From Escherichia coli phage vB_EcoS_Ace, in the sequence record MT833283.1: a stretch of DNA of 64,000 nt. One strand, given 5' to 3'. This document shows positions 6,198 through 18,652 of this stretch, in pieces; the stretch's first letter is position 1; each line of letters opens with the position of its first letter. Below the pieces are notes generated by a model, which did no database searches, was not told the DNA's origin, and saw only the letters and a program-made list of their open reading frames with translations. The position numbers and the translations under genes were made by a program.

Positions 6198-6494
6198 TTA
6201 CTGAACCTTGCACTGATATACTTGTTTGATACGTGTCACTGACTTCTTAGTTGGATTGATAGAAGAACCCTGCCACCAACGTGATTCTGAGCTGAGAACA
6301 GTACCAGGAACAGCTTGTTCTTTTGGCAGAACAATATCAAAACACTGTTCACCCATATTATCTTTAATGTGCGACCAAATGTCTAGAGTAAATCGTTCTA
6401 GCTTATTACAAACTTGAACTTGACAAAGTTCCTGTTGTGGAGCAGCAAATACAGAAGTAGATACTAGAGTCAATGCAAGTACAATGCGTTTCAT
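6198..6494 (-). CDS. secreted protein with signal peptide
   Basis: Start at ATG 6494 (MKRIVLALTLVSTSVFA) preceded by the T5-type leader TTTGAGAGAGGAATCAAAT and a promoter at about 6515-6570. Confidence 0.65.
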   Translation of the reverse strand: MKRIVLALTLVSTSVFAAPQQELCQVQVCNKLERFTLDIWSHIKDNMGEQCFDIVLPKEQAVPGTVLSSESRWWQGSSINPTKKSVTRIKQVYQCKVQ

Positions 6495-6600
6495 ATTTGA
6501 TTCCTCTCTCAAATTTATAAATATATTATACAGAAATTTTCTATATTAAGCAAGTGAAAATTTCTGTATAATAGCCCTCGCTTAGAGGGCTATAGCTACT

Positions 6601-7293
6601 TTATTTGTTAACGCGTACAAAGTATCCTTTATATGCCCCAAGAATAGAGTTACCTAAAAATACTAGCCACATTGCTAGGATTGCATAAGATGCACCTGTA
6701 GATTGAGCAGTTACAAGCCAAATGTATACAGTACCAATGTTAATAGCAATCCAGATCAGCCACTGCTCGGCATACTGCTTAACCATAAGCCACATAGCGA
6801 TCACACTACCTACCGCAGTAAATGCATCCAACATTGGGAATGGATCAGCCGTAGTAGTTAAGAAACTACCATACCCTAACGTGGCTACTGCTAGAATCCC
6901 TAGAGTCAGCAGAGCTTGGACTTTAGTCAGAATCTTAGTTGGAACATCTGGCAGATTACTTGGCTTATTTTTATGCCATAAGTACATTCCATAAAACTGC
7001 ATAGGAACGTAGTATAGCAGGTTTAGTGCAGCGTTACCATAAAGATCTTCGTTTAAAGCTGTAATACCATAGGTAAGAACACCAACTAAGCCCCAAATAT
7101 AGTTAGAAACACGTCCTTTAGCAACCAAAATAACACAAACTACGTTGGTTATCGCAGTAGCCCAATCTAGAGGTGTACCATTATAGTTAGCTAAACTAAT
7201 GAAGGCAACCGCTATGAACAGCCACAGATATTCCAGAGGTTTCCAGTTTTTAAAGTCATTTACGAGATAGTTAGTCATATTAAAACTCTCCAA
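6601..7293 (-). CDS. pnuC: nicotinamide riboside transporter PnuC
   Basis: 230 aa multi-pass membrane protein; segments PMLDAF and VIAMWLMVKQYAEQWLIWIAINI match PnuC family signatures as I recall them from E. coli PnuC. Confidence 0.8.
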   Translation of the reverse strand: MESFNMTNYLVNDFKNWKPLEYLWLFIAVAFISLANYNGTPLDWATAITNVVCVILVAKGRVSNYIWGLVGVLTYGITALNEDLYGNAALNLLYYVPMQFYGMYLWHKNKPSNLPDVPTKILTKVQALLTLGILAVATLGYGSFLTTTADPFPMLDAFTAVGSVIAMWLMVKQYAEQWLIWIAINIGTVYIWLVTAQSTGASYAILAMWLVFLGNSILGAYKGYFVRVNK

Positions 7294-7903
7294 CGTTAAA
7301 GTGATGAATCAGCCAGTCTACTGCGTTTACTGCTTCGTCCATACGAACTTTGTAGTCCGGGGAGTCGATGTACACAGTACGCCCTTCAGGGAACTGATTT
7401 GGAAATTCTTTCTTCATCTGCTCGAACAGTTCAGAAGTAATTGAACGATCGGAGTTAATACGTAAACCATCATCTACCCACTTGACAGTGGGCGCTAGAA
7501 CAATTACTAAATCGTAATGTTCTTCTTTTGCAATTGCTGTAACCACAGGGTTCTTACGATGTTCATAAAGTCTGTGGTAGAACTCAGTAATAAAAGCATT
7601 TGTATCCACAAACATGATCTTATTTGCAGTACGTTCTGCCTCAAACTCTAGCTCTTTGTGTCTGAACGCAATTTTACTATAATCTTCGCTGGTAAGCAGA
7701 TTTTCGTTACCAACTAGATCAACTTCACAATACGTTCGACCATATTCTTCTACCCACGAAGTGTTGTATAGCTTCGCAAGGTATTTTGTTAAAGTAGTCT
7801 TTCCTGAGCTTTCAGTCCCAATGATTACAACCCTACGCACGTAATCTTTACGAACTACGCTAGGAAGAAACTCCCAATACTTCATAAGATCATTACGAAT
7901 CAT
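7280..7903 (-). CDS. nadR: NadR-like ribosylnicotinamide kinase domain (downstream part of a nadR-like gene interrupted by an in-frame TAG)
   Basis: Walker A IIGTESSGKTTL; translation of the same frame upstream back to the TAG at 8114-8116 gives ...RVPISATMIRNDL (nucleotidyltransferase ISxTxIR motif) with no further stop. Confidence 0.75.
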   Translation of the reverse strand: MIRNDLMKYWEFLPSVVRKDYVRRVVIIGTESSGKTTLTKYLAKLYNTSWVEEYGRTYCEVDLVGNENLLTSEDYSKIAFRHKELEFEAERTANKIMFVDTNAFITEFYHRLYEHRKNPVVTAIAKEEHYDLVIVLAPTVKWVDDGLRINSDRSITSELFEQMKKEFPNQFPEGRTVYIDSPDYKVRMDEAVNAVDWLIHHFNVGEF

Positions 7904-8113: not shown

Positions 8114-8335
8114 CTAAACGTGCTCAATATCCGCGTAAGTTTGTTCTAACCAACGAAGACGATTCTTTAACTGTAATACTTCCTGATCACGTGTGTTCTG
8201 CTTATCCAGCCAACGATTATCATGACTAACTACAATAATAACTCGTTCACACATAGTTGCTGCTGTATTTATTAGGTTAATATGGCCACGCGTTAAGGGT
8301 GCGAACTTACCAATTACTAGACCAGTCTTAATCAT
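8114..8335 (-). CDS. nadR: NadR-like NMN adenylyltransferase N-terminal fragment, ending at in-frame TAG
   Basis: MIKTGLVIGKFAPLTRGHINL carries the (H/T)xGH nucleotidyltransferase motif; same frame as 7280-7903; start ATG 8335 has RBS AGAGAGG and a T5-type promoter. Confidence 0.7.
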   Translation of the reverse strand: MIKTGLVIGKFAPLTRGHINLINTAATMCERVIIVVSHDNRWLDKQNTRDQEVLQLKNRLRWLEQTYADIEHV

Positions 8336-8365
8336 GTTTGATTCCTCTCTCAAATTTATAAATAT

Positions 8366-8394
8366 ATTATACAGAGAATTTAGCATTCAAGCAA
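8366..8394 (-). promoter_or_regulatory. sigma70-type T5 early promoter (-35 TTGCTT, 17-nt spacer, -10 TATAAT) for nadR
   Basis: rc of 8366-8394 gives TTGCTT-N17-TATAAT followed by leader AAATTTGAGAGAGG. Confidence 0.7.
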
Positions 8395-16873: not shown

Positions 16874-17362
16874 TTACATCTCAGCAAGTTCTTGCTCAGT
16901 AATTACAGTATTGCATAGAGCATCAACTTCTTCATTACCACGAATACCTGAGTGACCTTTAACCTTAACAAAGGTTGGATTGGTATCATGGAAGTTAATA
17001 TACTGTTGAGTTAGTTTAAATGCTTCTTGCCAGAGTTCTAGATTAAGAGGAGTTTCACCATCTCCCTTCTTCCAGCCTTTCTTCTGCCAAGACCACATCC
17101 AGCTTTCCATACCATTTTTGCAGTAAGCAGAATCAGTGTAGATAATTACTGGACGATTATCTTTCTTAGTAGACCAACGAAGAACTTCTACAATTGCAGT
17201 AAGTTCCATTTCGTTATTAGTAGTTTTAGGGCTGAAGCCAGATTTAGAGCCAATACGATCATCATTATCATTATAGACAACGAATCCCCACGCACCTAAA
17301 CCAGGATTGCCTTTACATGCACCATCTGTATATATGTGGAAAACCGACATTATTTGCTCCAA
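16874..17362 (-). CDS. rnhA: ribonuclease H
   Basis: 162 aa; RNase HI motifs YTDGACKGNPG...ELTAI...YTDSAY...GH. Confidence 0.85.
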   Translation of the reverse strand: MEQIMSVFHIYTDGACKGNPGLGAWGFVVYNDNDDRIGSKSGFSPKTTNNEMELTAIVEVLRWSTKKDNRPVIIYTDSAYCKNGMESWMWSWQKKGWKKGDGETPLNLELWQEAFKLTQQYINFHDTNPTFVKVKGHSGIRGNEEVDALCNTVITEQELAEM

Positions 17363-17619
17363 TCAATTTCAAGCCAAAAACCTTCACGTTGCTCATACTT
17401 AGCTTCCACAACATAACCTAGTTTGCTAAGTTTTTGCATGACGCTATTTCTAGCGTTTTCTGAGTATTCAGTTAATCCCTGGATGTGACAATTAAATTCT
17501 TTATCTTTAATAGCTTTGTCAATCTCTACGGCAATAAGTGATTCTAGGTCAATTACTTCCTTTTTAATGCTAGCAATAGTATTTTGTTTTGCTTCTAGAG
17601 CAGATAAAAGAATAGACAT
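17350..17619 (-). CDS. hypothetical protein
   Basis: 89 aa ORF overlapping the RNase H start by 13 nt. Confidence 0.5.
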   Translation of the reverse strand: MSILLSALEAKQNTIASIKKEVIDLESLIAVEIDKAIKDKEFNCHIQGLTEYSENARNSVMQKLSKLGYVVEAKYEQREGFWLEIDWSK

Positions 17620-17621
17620 AT

Positions 17622-18200
17622 TTATTCTCCAATTACTAAAACATCATGTTGAGAAGATACACCACACATATAATCTGCACAATGCGTAAAAGCCAGATCA
17701 ATGATTTCAAATATATCATCTACATCTAAATCTGTGGCTCGACAATACGCAATAGCTAAACCTGTACGAATACTGGAAAGTACATCTTCTCCTCCACAGC
17801 CTACACCGGCATATTCAACTTCTAGAATAGAAGCATTAGATTGGAAAATAAAGATTCTTCCTTTGTAGAGCATAATAAATTGTCCCAGATTAGGTTCAGC
17901 ATATTTTTCATTTTTCTTTTCGCCAAAATCTTTCTGGTTAAACATATCACGTAATTTAGGTACTATTTCCGTGTATAAATATTTATCATCAGAAATATCT
18001 GCTAAACGTGGTGGTACAGTAAAGCTATGCTCTAGTAATTGTCCCATGTAGAAGGAACTAGTGTATCCGAAGTACAAATCATCAGAGATTTTGAATACTT
18101 TCGGATTTTTAACCAGCAGTTTCGTATAGCCATTAGAACCCATACGATCACCAGCTAAGTATACTTTATCTTTATATTTAAATGCTACTATGGCTGTCAT
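17622..18200 (-). CDS. Ntn-hydrolase, HslV/proteasome-beta-like
   Basis: 192 aa; Thr immediately after iMet (MTAIVAFKYKDKVYLAGD) like the HslV N-terminal nucleophile; Gly-rich AGVGCGGEDV segment. Confidence 0.55.
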   Translation of the reverse strand: MTAIVAFKYKDKVYLAGDRMGSNGYTKLLVKNPKVFKISDDLYFGYTSSFYMGQLLEHSFTVPPRLADISDDKYLYTEIVPKLRDMFNQKDFGEKKNEKYAEPNLGQFIMLYKGRIFIFQSNASILEVEYAGVGCGGEDVLSSIRTGLAIAYCRATDLDVDDIFEIIDLAFTHCADYMCGVSSQHDVLVIGE

Positions 18201-18298
18201 TATTAAATCCTTCTGTCAAATTAGAAGTATATTATATTTAAATTTCACTCAGTAAGCAAATGAAATTTAAATATAATAGCCCCGAAGGGCTATTTGAA

Positions 18299-18652
18299 TT
18301 AGATTATAATCAAGATTATTAGGGCGTATGTCAGATAATGCAGTAACTGATCAAATCCTAAAGCTATCCAAAACTTAGCATCGCTTATAGCGTATTTACA
18401 GCGTTGTGCTTTCCAATAATCTATAATAAAGTGTAGAATTAATTCCATAATAGCTAAAGCTATAGACATTCCTGGTGATGTGAATAGGATTAGAATTGCA
18501 AATGTTAATCCAGCATGTACTAGCGAATGGGTTAATAATGGAAGTTTCCACCCTATTTTATGCGTCTTTCTTAGCATATATGGTGTTTGGAGTGGATAAT
18601 CGGCCATAAAATGTTTTAGAAATAATATGACAAATAATAGTATAATTAACAT
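18299..18652 (-). CDS. small integral membrane protein
   Basis: 117 aa, strongly hydrophobic with three or four predicted TM segments. Confidence 0.55.
   Translation of the reverse strand: MLIILLFVILFLKHFMADYPLQTPYMLRKTHKIGWKLPLLTHSLVHAGLTFAILILFTSPGMSIALAIMELILHFIIDYWKAQRCKYAISDAKFWIALGFDQLLHYLTYALIILIII

What the first reader, a model, noticed from the sequence alone, without database searches (positions are those of the whole stretch)
17622..18200. HslV/proteasome-beta-like Ntn hydrolase encoded by the phage
The ORF begins Met-Thr (MTAIVAF...) so that methionine removal would expose an N-terminal threonine nucleophile. It also carries a Gly-rich segment resembling HslV. A phage-encoded protease subunit could remodel host proteostasis or degrade defence proteins.
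Basis: partly seen in the sequence, partly recalled or inferred. Interest (0 to 1): 0.4.

Follow-up and report, generated by a model that had tools for sequence, protein, structure and literature searches.

The report
Phage-encoded proteasome-like threonine protease
This T5-like Salmonella/E. coli phage encodes a small enzyme of the proteasome family with every catalytic residue intact; databases and a 2021 survey already recognise it, it is only a distant relative of the host protease HslV, and nobody has yet shown what it does during infection.

Summary

It is not an HslV orthologue. It fails the NCBIfam HslV models, BLASTP against E. coli HslV is not significant, two of three named HslU-tail pocket residues are changed, and its pore loop is long.

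Its ~180-aa relatives are commonest in Streptomyces, Alphaproteobacteria and phages. That fits the "AAH" group of proteasome homologues (Fuchs, Alva & Lupas 2021).

The gene is accessory. It lies between thyA and rnh in EPS7-like phages, and that slot is empty in T5.

Near-identical proteins are already annotated "Proteasome subunit" or "peptidase HslV family". I found no functional study.

Most likely it is a self-assembling N-terminal-threonine peptidase, made early in infection, that works without HslU. Its oligomeric state, substrates and role are inferred, not shown.

The parts
17622..18200 (-). CDS of the proteasome-family (AAH-like) N-terminal-threonine hydrolase, 192 aa; the stop codon is at 17622-17624
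18195..18197 (-). Codon for Thr2, the predicted catalytic nucleophile (Thr1 after Met removal)
   Evidence: M1 and T2 are invariant in 80/80 relatives, nearly all of which begin at residue 1 of the profile. Aligns to Thr1 of HslV
18147..18149 (-). Codon for Asp18 (equivalent to proteasome/HslV Asp17)
   Evidence: Invariant 80/80; aligned to HslV Asp17 in 'AGD'
18099..18101 (-). Codon for Lys34 (equivalent to proteasome/HslV Lys33)
   Evidence: Invariant 80/80; aligned to HslV Lys33
18039..18068 (-). Residues 45-54, GYTSSFYMGQ: Gly45 is the predicted oxyanion-hole glycine, followed by the family signature [YF]T[STG]SF[RY][MF]GQ at the start of helix H1
   Evidence: G45 is 80/80; T47, S49, F50, G53 and Q54 are each at least 90%. 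The locus scan used this stretch as its search pattern. G45 aligns to HslV Gly45
17880..17933 (-). Residues 90-107, KDFGEKKNEKYAEPNLGQ: the loop between helix H2 and the next strand (the 'pore loop' position of ring-forming homologues). It is 18 aa long, has net charge 0 and lower model confidence
   Evidence: Secondary structure and block pLDDT of 80; loop length and charge; role of this loop in HslV and BPH from PMC5777263 and PMC8665760
17790..17807 (-). Residues 132-137, GVGCGG: the glycine-rich loop equivalent to HslV G123-S124-G125-G126 and proteasome Gly128-Ser129-Gly130. Cys135 sits where Ser would be
   Evidence: G134 and G136 are 80/80. Position 135 is Cys in 49/80, Ser in 27/80, Ala in 3 and Ile in 1. 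Alignment to HslV 'IGSGG'
18208..18213 (-). Shine-Dalgarno-like GAAGGA, 7 nt upstream of the ATG
   Evidence: Read directly from the sequence; no functional test
18231..18259 (-). Candidate sigma-70-type promoter: TTGCTT, 17-nt spacer, TATAAT (perfect -10). By eye only and below the scanner's -35 threshold
   Evidence: Sequence. The scanner reported a different weak candidate at 18298->18270. T5 has an annotated promoter in the equivalent thy-rnh gap
18275..18294 (-). Hairpin AATAGCCC-TTCG-GGGCTATT immediately downstream of the DUF3307 gene. Possible terminator or RNA element separating it from the protease gene
   Evidence: Read from the sequence. The terminator scan did not call it because the T-tract is imperfect
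17350..17619 (-). 89-aa ORF starting 2 nt after the protease stop codon. It matches no family and belongs to the same T5-absent block
   Evidence: no Pfam hit above cutoff. Not present next to the protease in diverged T5-like genomes
18299..18652 (-). DUF3307 membrane-protein gene upstream, part of the same block that T5 lacks
   Evidence: Pfam PF11750 47 bits vs cutoff 23; absent from the thy-rnh junction in T5

Best explanation
SHOWN. The gene encodes a member of the proteasome (peptidase T1, Ntn-hydrolase) family. It has no propeptide. It keeps the full catalytic set: Thr1 nucleophile after Met removal, Asp17, Lys33, the oxyanion Gly, and a G-(C/S)-G loop. Its compact four-helix architecture belongs to Fuchs et al.'s 'group I', which contains HslV, BPH, AAH, CPH and PPH. 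It belongs to a large family of ~180-aa proteins found in phages, Streptomyces, Alphaproteobacteria, Myxococcota and Bacilli. [quoted passage not shown] It is only a distant homologue of host HslV. It is an accessory gene placed between thyA and rnh, inside the nucleotide-metabolism and replication gene block of EPS7-like (Epseptimavirus) phages. T5 has nothing in that slot.

INFERRED. It is transcribed with the early genes. Its initiator Met is removed by host methionine aminopeptidase. It then self-assembles into a homo-oligomeric double ring, like its closest structural relatives BPH and HslV, with the active sites facing inward. It cleaves peptides or unfolded proteins by the classical Thr1 mechanism, without needing the host unfoldase HslU. 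The 18-residue H2/S7 loop is likely to gate or select substrates. Its biological role is unknown; candidates are turnover of particular host or phage proteins early in infection, or peptide recycling.
For: Family and fold:
- Pfam PF00227 full-length, 38.6 bits vs cutoff 22.4; PHROG 1040 E 1.9e-21.
- AF2 model pLDDT 91.1, pTM 0.88, with the beta-sandwich plus H1-H4 topology and no C-terminal H5.
- Foldseek against PDB: HslV and BPH on top, probability 1.00, TM 0.63-0.70.

Catalytic residues:
- M1, T2, D18, K34, G45, G106, G134 and G136 are invariant in 80 sequences that share only 27-73% identity with the query.
- They map onto HslV Thr1, Asp17, Lys33, Gly45 and G123/G125.

Size and spread of the family:
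- 6,638 cluster representatives at E<=1e-3 and 783 at E<=1e-30. Most of the 150 listed are 175-195 aa, and nearly all start at profile position 1.
- 391 confirmed cellular loci. The top 80 are dominated by Streptomyces, Azospirillum, Mesorhizobium, Devosia and Rhizobium.
- Phage homologues occur in Aeromonas, Vibrio, jumbo coliphages, Moorella and Ochrobactrum phages. 28 BFVD viral structures match at E<=1e-3.
- This distribution and architecture match AAH in PMC8665760.

Not HslV and probably HslU-independent:
- The phage protein matches no NCBIfam HslV model, and neither do three bacterial relatives, while E. coli HslV scores 303.8 bits.
- BLASTP against E. coli HslV gives E 0.35.
- HslV aligns only in two blocks that skip H1, H2 and the loop. 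BPH aligns end to end.
- Of the HslU-tail pocket residues Phe54, Phe57 and Gln114 (PMC6429459), only Phe54 is kept. Phe57 corresponds to Gly53 and Gln114 to Glu127.
- HslV is not listed in Actinobacteria in Fuchs Table 1, yet this family is common in Streptomyces.
- No HslU-like gene is found in the window.

Accessory early gene:
- T5 has rnh directly next to thy.
- The same slot holds the protease in diverged T5-like genomes at 50-56% identity.

Precedent for Met removal exposing Thr1: BPH expressed in E. coli (PMC5777263).
Against: No experiment supports activity, assembly or substrates. The structure is a predicted monomer, so ring formation and ring symmetry are pure inference from homologues. 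Fuchs et al. explicitly warn that some new homologues may have unprecedented quaternary structures.

BPH, the closest solved structure, showed no activity on model substrates in vitro, so 'general peptidase' may be wrong.

Cys replaces the Ser that hydrogen-bonds Thr1 in characterised enzymes. The effect is unknown, although Cys and Ser alternate freely across the family.

The HslU-pocket comparison rests on a low-confidence stretch of the profile alignment.

The AAH assignment rests on described properties and taxonomic distribution. I could not compare the protein directly with the AAH reference sequence.

Early expression is inferred from gene position only. Only 64 kb of the roughly 112-kb genome was checked for an unfoldase partner.
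Confidence: 0.62

Rival explanations
1. HslV mimic. The phage protein forms HslV-like hexameric rings that dock the host AAA+ unfoldase HslU, or mix into host HslV rings. This would redirect the host's ATP-dependent HslUV protease toward substrates that favour the phage.
For: It is a true homologue of HslV: profile vs E. coli HslV gives 97.1% probability and E 5e-11, and HslV is the best sequence-profile hit in the PDB at E 6.5e-11. The hosts, E. coli and Salmonella, encode hslVU. Phe54 of the HslU-tail pocket is retained as F50. The phage encodes only the protease subunit, as was noted for jumbo phages (PMC7823757).
Against: It fails both HslV equivalog models, and pairwise similarity to host HslV is not significant. 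The H1/H2 region that forms the HslU-contacting surface is the part that does not align. Two of three named pocket residues differ: Phe57 corresponds to a near-invariant Gly (78/80) and Gln114 to Glu. The pore loop is 18 aa long, whereas HslV has a short linker carrying an Arg86/Arg89/Lys90 cluster. The family is abundant in Streptomyces, a phylum where HslV is not listed. BPH, a descendant of HslV, is the structurally closest protein and lost its HslU interface.
Confidence: 0.12
2. A substrate-specific enzyme that does not form a degradation chamber, acting as a monomer or small oligomer. It would cut, or like connectase ligate, one particular host or phage protein or peptide.
Confidence: 0.15
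3. Virion morphogenesis protease that matures the prohead or scaffold.
For: Many phage-encoded proteases serve capsid maturation. One database record labels some gene in this neighbourhood 'putative head maturation protease' (SP_Thor).
Against: The gene lies among thymidylate synthase, DHFR, ribonucleotide reductase and RNase H genes, not among structural genes. T5 builds the same kind of virion without anything in this slot. SP_Thor annotates this very ORF as 'hypothetical protein' (H16). Known prohead proteases have other folds (established knowledge: herpesvirus-type S80/U9/U35 families and ClpP-like S14).
Confidence: 0.03
4. Catalytically irrelevant passenger or decoy. The gene would be a drifting accessory ORF, or a protein that works only by binding, for example by sequestering a host factor.
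For: The slot is empty in T5, and no phenotype has been reported.
Against: Every catalytic residue is invariant across homologues down to 27% identity. The gene is kept in the same slot at 50-56% identity in diverged T5-like phages. It is at least 95% identical in about 119 sequenced phages. This pattern indicates purifying selection on catalysis.
Confidence: 0.04

Closest known systems
[quoted passage not shown]
   Same: A compact ~180-190-aa subunit with both helix pairs, no insertions, no propeptide and no C-terminal H5. The catalytic triad and oxyanion Gly are present. Cellular relatives are concentrated in Streptomyces and Alphaproteobacteria, with some in Firmicutes and many in phages. 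Structurally it is nearest to BPH, the cluster from which AAH radiates.
   Different: Membership was not verified against the AAH reference sequence WP_035979212 or the CLANS map, because neither was available. This copy comes from a gammaproteobacterial T5-like phage. AAH itself has no experimental characterisation, so the assignment adds no functional information.
BPH (Betaproteobacteria proteasome homolog; PDB 5OVS, 5OVT, 5OVU; PMC5777263)
   Different: Only 13-22% identity. The BPH pore loop is highly acidic, with up to five consecutive Asp/Glu, whereas this loop is neutral (net 0; family mean -1.2). BPH has Ser at the Thr1-bonding position where this protein has Cys. BPH is a tetradecamer; the oligomeric state here is unknown.
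HslV (ClpQ), the peptidase of the bacterial HslUV ATP-dependent protease
   Different: It fails the HslV equivalog models, on which E. coli HslV scores 304 bits. Identity is 22% and only detectable by profile. Relative to HslV there is a 4-residue deletion after the oxyanion Gly and a different H1 motif, TSSF(R/Y)MGQ instead of GGTADAF. The pore loop is long rather than a short basic linker. HslU-pocket residues Phe57 and Gln114 are not kept. There is no hslU gene beside it.
[quoted passage not shown]
   Same: A phage-borne group I proteasome homologue. It is the published precedent for a 'true viral member' of the family.
   Different: PPH is about 140 aa and lacks helix H2. This protein is 192 aa with a confident H2 at residues 71-89.

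Membership tests
Proteasome / peptidase T1 family (Pfam PF00227) | Sequence match above the curated Pfam gathering score, covering the whole domain | tested here: met
   38.6 bits vs 22.4, residues 2-189 on profile positions 5-188 of 189
Proteasome / peptidase T1 family (Pfam PF00227) | Ntn-hydrolase alpha-beta-beta-alpha fold of proteasome beta type | tested here: met
Proteasome / peptidase T1 family (Pfam PF00227) | N-terminal Thr (or Ser) nucleophile exposed in the mature protein | tested here: met
   Met1-Thr2 with no upstream start; M1 and T2 are 80/80. Actual Met removal was not tested. The precedent is BPH in E. coli
Proteasome / peptidase T1 family (Pfam PF00227) | Asp17, Lys33 and the oxyanion-hole Gly (Gly47 in the proteasome, Gly45 in HslV) | tested here: met
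   D18, K34 and G45 are invariant 80/80 and in register with HslV
Proteasome / peptidase T1 family (Pfam PF00227) | Ser in the Gly-Ser-Gly loop that hydrogen-bonds Thr1 (Ser129 proteasome, Ser124 HslV, Ser139 BPH) | tested here: inconclusive
   Here it is Cys135. Across the family it is Cys 49/80 and Ser 27/80, with both flanking glycines 80/80. A thiol may substitute, but that is not known
Proteasome / peptidase T1 family (Pfam PF00227) | Peptide-bond hydrolysis, and covalent labelling of Thr1 by epoxyketone or vinyl-sulfone probes | not testable with these tools
   Needs purified protein
HslV (ClpQ) | Passes the curated HslV equivalog models (NF003964, TIGR03692) | tested here: not met
   No hit at E<=1 for the phage protein. 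The positive control, E. coli HslV, scores 303.8 and 288.2 bits
HslV (ClpQ) | Conserved pocket for the HslU C-terminal tail (Phe54, Phe57 and Gln114 in Ec/Hi HslV; PMC6429459) | tested here: not met
   F50 is kept. Phe57 corresponds to Gly53 (78/80 Gly) and Gln114 to Glu127. Alignment confidence in H1 is low, so this is a weak test
HslV (ClpQ) | Short H2/S7 linker carrying the basic Arg86/Arg89/Lys90 pore cluster | tested here: not met
   18-residue loop with net charge 0; HslV description from PMC5777263
HslV (ClpQ) | Encoded next to, and working with, the AAA+ ATPase HslU | tested here: not met
   The neighbours are DUF3307, an 89-aa ORF, RNase H and ThyA. The only HslU-like match in the 64-kb window is a Walker-A stretch in a 207-aa P-loop protein. 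Functional interaction with host HslU was not testable
BPH | Elongated and highly acidic inner pore loop | tested here: not met
   The loop is elongated (18 aa) but not acidic: net charge 0, family mean -1.2, range -4 to +1
BPH | Tetradecameric double ring | not testable with these tools
   Only a monomer could be predicted
AAH (Fuchs et al. 2021) | Group I compact architecture: helices H1-H4, no insertions, no propeptide, no S12/H5 | tested here: met
   Secondary-structure map of the model, compared with the description in PMC8665760
AAH (Fuchs et al. 2021) | Most abundant in Actinobacteria and Alphaproteobacteria, also in Firmicutes and in many phage genomes | tested here: met
   The top 80 of 391 cellular loci are mostly Streptomyces, Azospirillum, Mesorhizobium, Devosia, Rhizobium and Ensifer, plus Bacilli and Myxococcota. 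Phage homologues are listed
AAH (Fuchs et al. 2021) | Clusters with the AAH reference WP_035979212 in sequence space | not testable with these tools
PPH (Fuchs et al. 2021) | About 140 residues and lacking helix H2 | tested here: not met
   192 aa; H2 predicted at residues 71-89 with block pLDDT 93-96
Connectase | Lacks the H1/H2 pair and carries a two-helix insertion between S3 and S4 | tested here: not met

The most novel reading that the evidence does not exclude
In T5-like phages the AAH-type proteasome homologue assembles into a chambered threonine protease that either needs no unfoldase or hijacks a host one. Early in infection it would destroy specific host proteins, such as defence or stress-response factors. 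That would make it the first functionally defined viral 'proteasome', in a genetically tractable E. coli K-12 phage system, since the gene is present in BASEL phages such as TrudiRoth and IrmaTschudi.
Probability: 0.15. Interest if true: 0.7.

Novelty: already known. Interest (0 to 1): 0.3.

Why it matters
Proteasome-family proteases encoded by phages have been catalogued (PPH, AAH and CPH in Fuchs et al. 2021), and annotation pipelines routinely label them "peptidase HslV family". I found no paper assigning a function, substrate or quaternary structure to any of them. This copy sits in well-studied, easily manipulated T5-like phages of E. coli and Salmonella. It is missing from the same slot in T5, which offers a natural comparison. 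It is therefore a convenient entry point for asking what a viral proteasome homologue does. The practical value of this check is a corrected label: it is not HslV, and an HslU partnership should not be assumed. As a discovery it is ordinary, because the fold call was right and is already in the databases.

Tried and rejected
1. Direct phmmer of the single sequence against PDB gave only marginal hits (E 0.012 to Plasmodium beta7). A family profile was needed.
2. NCBIfam and PADLOC gave no useful family. There is no HslV hit and no defence-system model.
3. I looked for a conserved neighbour or partner gene in 80 bacterial loci by naive ORF clustering. The high-GC genomes produced mostly spurious overlapping ORFs. 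The largest clusters clear of the protease gene span fewer than ten loci, and the examples shown are from Azospirillum. No widely conserved partner or AAA+ gene emerged, but this analysis is crude.
4. I looked for a second proteasome-like subunit in the window with the family HMM and found none. Paired genes exist in Aeromonas phages but not here.
5. I looked for a phage-encoded HslU-like unfoldase by tblastn. The only match is a Walker-A stretch in a 207-aa P-loop protein. This has low sensitivity and covers only the 64-kb window.
6. I tried to obtain AAH, PPH or CPH reference sequences from the paper's supplement, which contains none.
7. Active-site geometry could not be measured, because model coordinates are not exposed to scripts.
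8. The head-maturation-protease idea was rejected on gene context and on the empty slot in T5.
9. Literature searches for experimental work on phage proteasome homologues, or on this gene in Epseptimavirus, returned only annotation-level mentions.

Full report
**1. Observation.** The window has an ATG-initiated ORF of 192 codons at 17622-18200. It lies on the minus strand, which the finding did not state. It begins MTAIVAF. The reading frame is open for only five codons upstream and these contain no start codon, so the protein cannot carry a propeptide. A GAAGGA ribosome-binding site sits 7 nt upstream of the ATG (read). The "Gly-rich segment" is GVGCGG, residues 132-137 (window 17790-17807).

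**2. Fold and family.**
- Pfam's Proteasome model (PF00227) matches residues 2-189 against profile positions 5-188 of 189. The score is 38.6 bits against a gathering cutoff of 22.4.
- PHROG 1040, "peptidase HslV family", matches at E 1.9e-21.
- An AlphaFold2 model built on 18 homologues is confident (mean pLDDT 91.1, pTM 0.88). It shows the proteasome-beta topology: two beta-sheets, helix pairs H1/H2 (residues 50-59 and 71-89) and H3/H4 (137-153 and 160-175), and no fifth C-terminal helix.
- Foldseek against the PDB puts HslV and BPH first, with probability 1.00, E about 1e-10 and TM 0.63-0.70.

**3. Catalytic residues.** I aligned 80 relatives sharing 27-73% identity with the query. The invariant columns are M1, T2, D18, K34, G45, G106, G134 and G136. 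Profile alignments to solved HslV chains and to E. coli K-12 HslV put these in register with Thr1, Asp17, Lys33, Gly45 and the G123-S124-G125 loop. The one departure is Cys135, at the position of the Ser that hydrogen-bonds Thr1 (Ser124 in HslV, Ser139 in BPH). Across the family this position is Cys in 49/80 and Ser in 27/80. It is a family trait and not a lesion. Removal of the start Met to expose Thr1 was shown by mass spectrometry for BPH made in E. coli (PMC5777263), and Thr is a permissive second residue for methionine aminopeptidase (established knowledge).

**4. Which member of the family?** It is not HslV.
- The NCBIfam HslV equivalog models do not match it at E<=1. They also fail to match three bacterial relatives, while E. 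coli HslV scores 303.8 and 288.2 bits on them.
- BLASTP against host HslV is not significant (E 0.35). Homology appears only at profile level (97.1% probability, 22% identity).
- HslV aligns in two blocks that skip H1, H2 and the following loop. BPH aligns in a single stretch.
- Relative to HslV there is a 4-residue deletion after the oxyanion Gly and a distinct motif, GYT(S/T)SF(R/Y)MGQ.
- The H2-to-strand loop is 18 residues with net charge 0. HslV has a short linker with a basic cluster, and BPH has a long, very acidic loop.
- Three HslV residues are reported to accommodate the HslU tail: Phe54, Phe57 and Gln114 (PMC6429459). Only the first is kept. Phe57 corresponds to a near-invariant Gly and Gln114 to Glu. 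Alignment confidence there is low, so this is a weak test.

**5. The wider family.** A profile search of 1.84 billion cluster representatives finds 6,638 proteins at E<=1e-3 and 783 at E<=1e-30. Most of the 150 listed are 175-195 aa, and nearly all start at profile position 1. A scan of one genome per species confirms 391 cellular loci. The best 80 are mostly Streptomyces and Alphaproteobacteria (Azospirillum, Mesorhizobium, Devosia, Rhizobium, Ensifer), with Myxococcota, Paraburkholderia and Bacilli.

Fuchs, Alva and Lupas (PMC8665760) described 22 new proteasome homologues. [quoted passage not shown] PPH, the "first true viral member", is about 140 aa and lacks H2. CPH is mainly cyanobacterial. 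This protein has H2 and is 192 aa, so it is not PPH. Its properties fit AAH. I could not compare it directly with the AAH reference sequence, so that assignment is probable rather than proven.

HslV is not listed for Actinobacteria in that paper's Table 1. The many Streptomyces members of this family therefore presumably work without HslU.

**6. Genomic setting.** The window is an EPS7-like T5-like phage, 99.3% identical over 6 kb to Salmonella phage PMBT22. The exact protein sequence is that of E. coli phage vB_EcoS_Ace. The gene lies between thymidylate synthase and RNase H, inside the block of DHFR, ribonucleotide reductase and replication genes.

In T5, rnh (T5.091) directly abuts thy (T5.092) with only an annotated promoter between them. 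The DUF3307 gene (18299-18652), the protease and an 89-aa ORF (17350-17619) therefore form a block of about 1.3 kb that T5 lacks. In more distant T5-like genomes (50-56% identity) the protease keeps the same slot without those two neighbours. About 125 phage records carry a copy at least 90% identical, whereas 447 records share the neighbourhood at DNA level.

A hairpin (18275-18294), a possible TTGCTT-17-TATAAT promoter (18231-18259) and the RBS precede the gene. These were read by eye only, and the scanners did not call this hairpin or this promoter. The window holds no second proteasome-like gene. It holds no HslU-like gene either. The only HslU match is the Walker-A region of a 207-aa P-loop protein.

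**7. Mechanism.**
- *Shown:* a proteasome-family protein with an intact active site, under purifying selection, encoded as an accessory gene among early-type genes.
- *Inferred:* early expression; Met removal; assembly into a homo-oligomeric double ring like BPH (14-mer) or HslV (12-mer); hydrolysis of peptides or unfolded proteins by the Thr1/Lys33/Asp17 mechanism; independence from HslU; a gating or selecting role for the 18-residue loop.
- *Rivals:* an HslV mimic that exploits host HslU; a non-chambered, substrate-specific enzyme in the manner of connectase; a morphogenetic protease; a passenger or decoy. Each is scored in the report sections.
- BPH itself showed no activity on model substrates, so a narrow substrate range is a real possibility.

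**8. Novelty.** Near-identical proteins are already labelled "Proteasome subunit", "peptidase HslV family", "threonine-type endopeptidase" or "putative proteasome" in GenBank, RefSeq and UniProt. Phage-borne proteasome homologues were described in 2021 (PMC8665760). The BFVD viral structure library holds 28 viral proteins with this fold at E<=1e-3. Literature searches found only annotation-level mentions and no functional work. The finding is correct but already known. What this check adds is the refinement that the protein is AAH-like, as close in fold to BPH as to HslV, and probably HslU-independent. The open biological question is what any viral proteasome homologue does.

Noticed in passing
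window 17350-18652 (minus strand), compared with L082 (T5, NC_005859) 6413-7862: Relative to T5, where rnh abuts thy, this phage has a three-gene block between them: a DUF3307 membrane protein (18299-18652), the proteasome-like gene, and an 89-aa ORF with no family (17350-17619) that starts 2 nt after the protease stop codon. Only the protease is retained in that slot in diverged T5-like genomes (L085, L087).
   Followed up: partly
window 18275-18294 and 18231-18259 (minus strand): A hairpin, AATAGCCC-TTCG-GGGCTATT (UUCG-type loop), lies right after the DUF3307 gene. It is followed by TTGCTT-17 nt-TATAAT. These may be a terminator and a dedicated promoter for the protease gene. The consensus scanners called neither element.
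   Followed up: no
L083 3501-4052 and 4070-4954 (Aeromonas phage 4L372D); L088 3501-4052 and 4068-4955: These phages carry two adjacent proteasome-family genes. One is a 183-aa AAH-like subunit, 42% identical to the query. The other is a divergent 294/295-aa protein whose N-terminus matches Pfam Proteasome at 24.8 bits. They could form a two-subunit viral proteasome-like particle. The window has no such second gene.
   Followed up: partly
L084 2565-3173 (Escherichia jumbo phage vB_EcoM_E9.1): Two ORFs upstream of its HslV-like gene, the jumbo phage has a 202-aa gene annotated 'protease' with a weak ClpP-like match (17.5 bits, below the 20.2 cutoff).
   Followed up: no
window 7280-7903 and 8114-8386 (minus strand): A 207-aa P-loop protein carries a GTESSGKTT Walker-A motif. 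About 210 nt away, a 90-aa ORF carries a GKFAPLTRGH motif that looks like a nucleotidyltransferase signature. By eye they resemble NadR-type kinase and adenylyltransferase functions split into separate ORFs; I did not test this.
   Followed up: no
hits H13/H14 (Salmonella phage SP_Thor, MW411578 / NC_103484): That record labels genes in this nucleotide-metabolism neighbourhood 'putative head maturation protease' and 'terminase large subunit'. Other records annotate the same region as RNR, ThyA and DHFR, so this is probably a mis-annotation in the deposited record.
   Followed up: no
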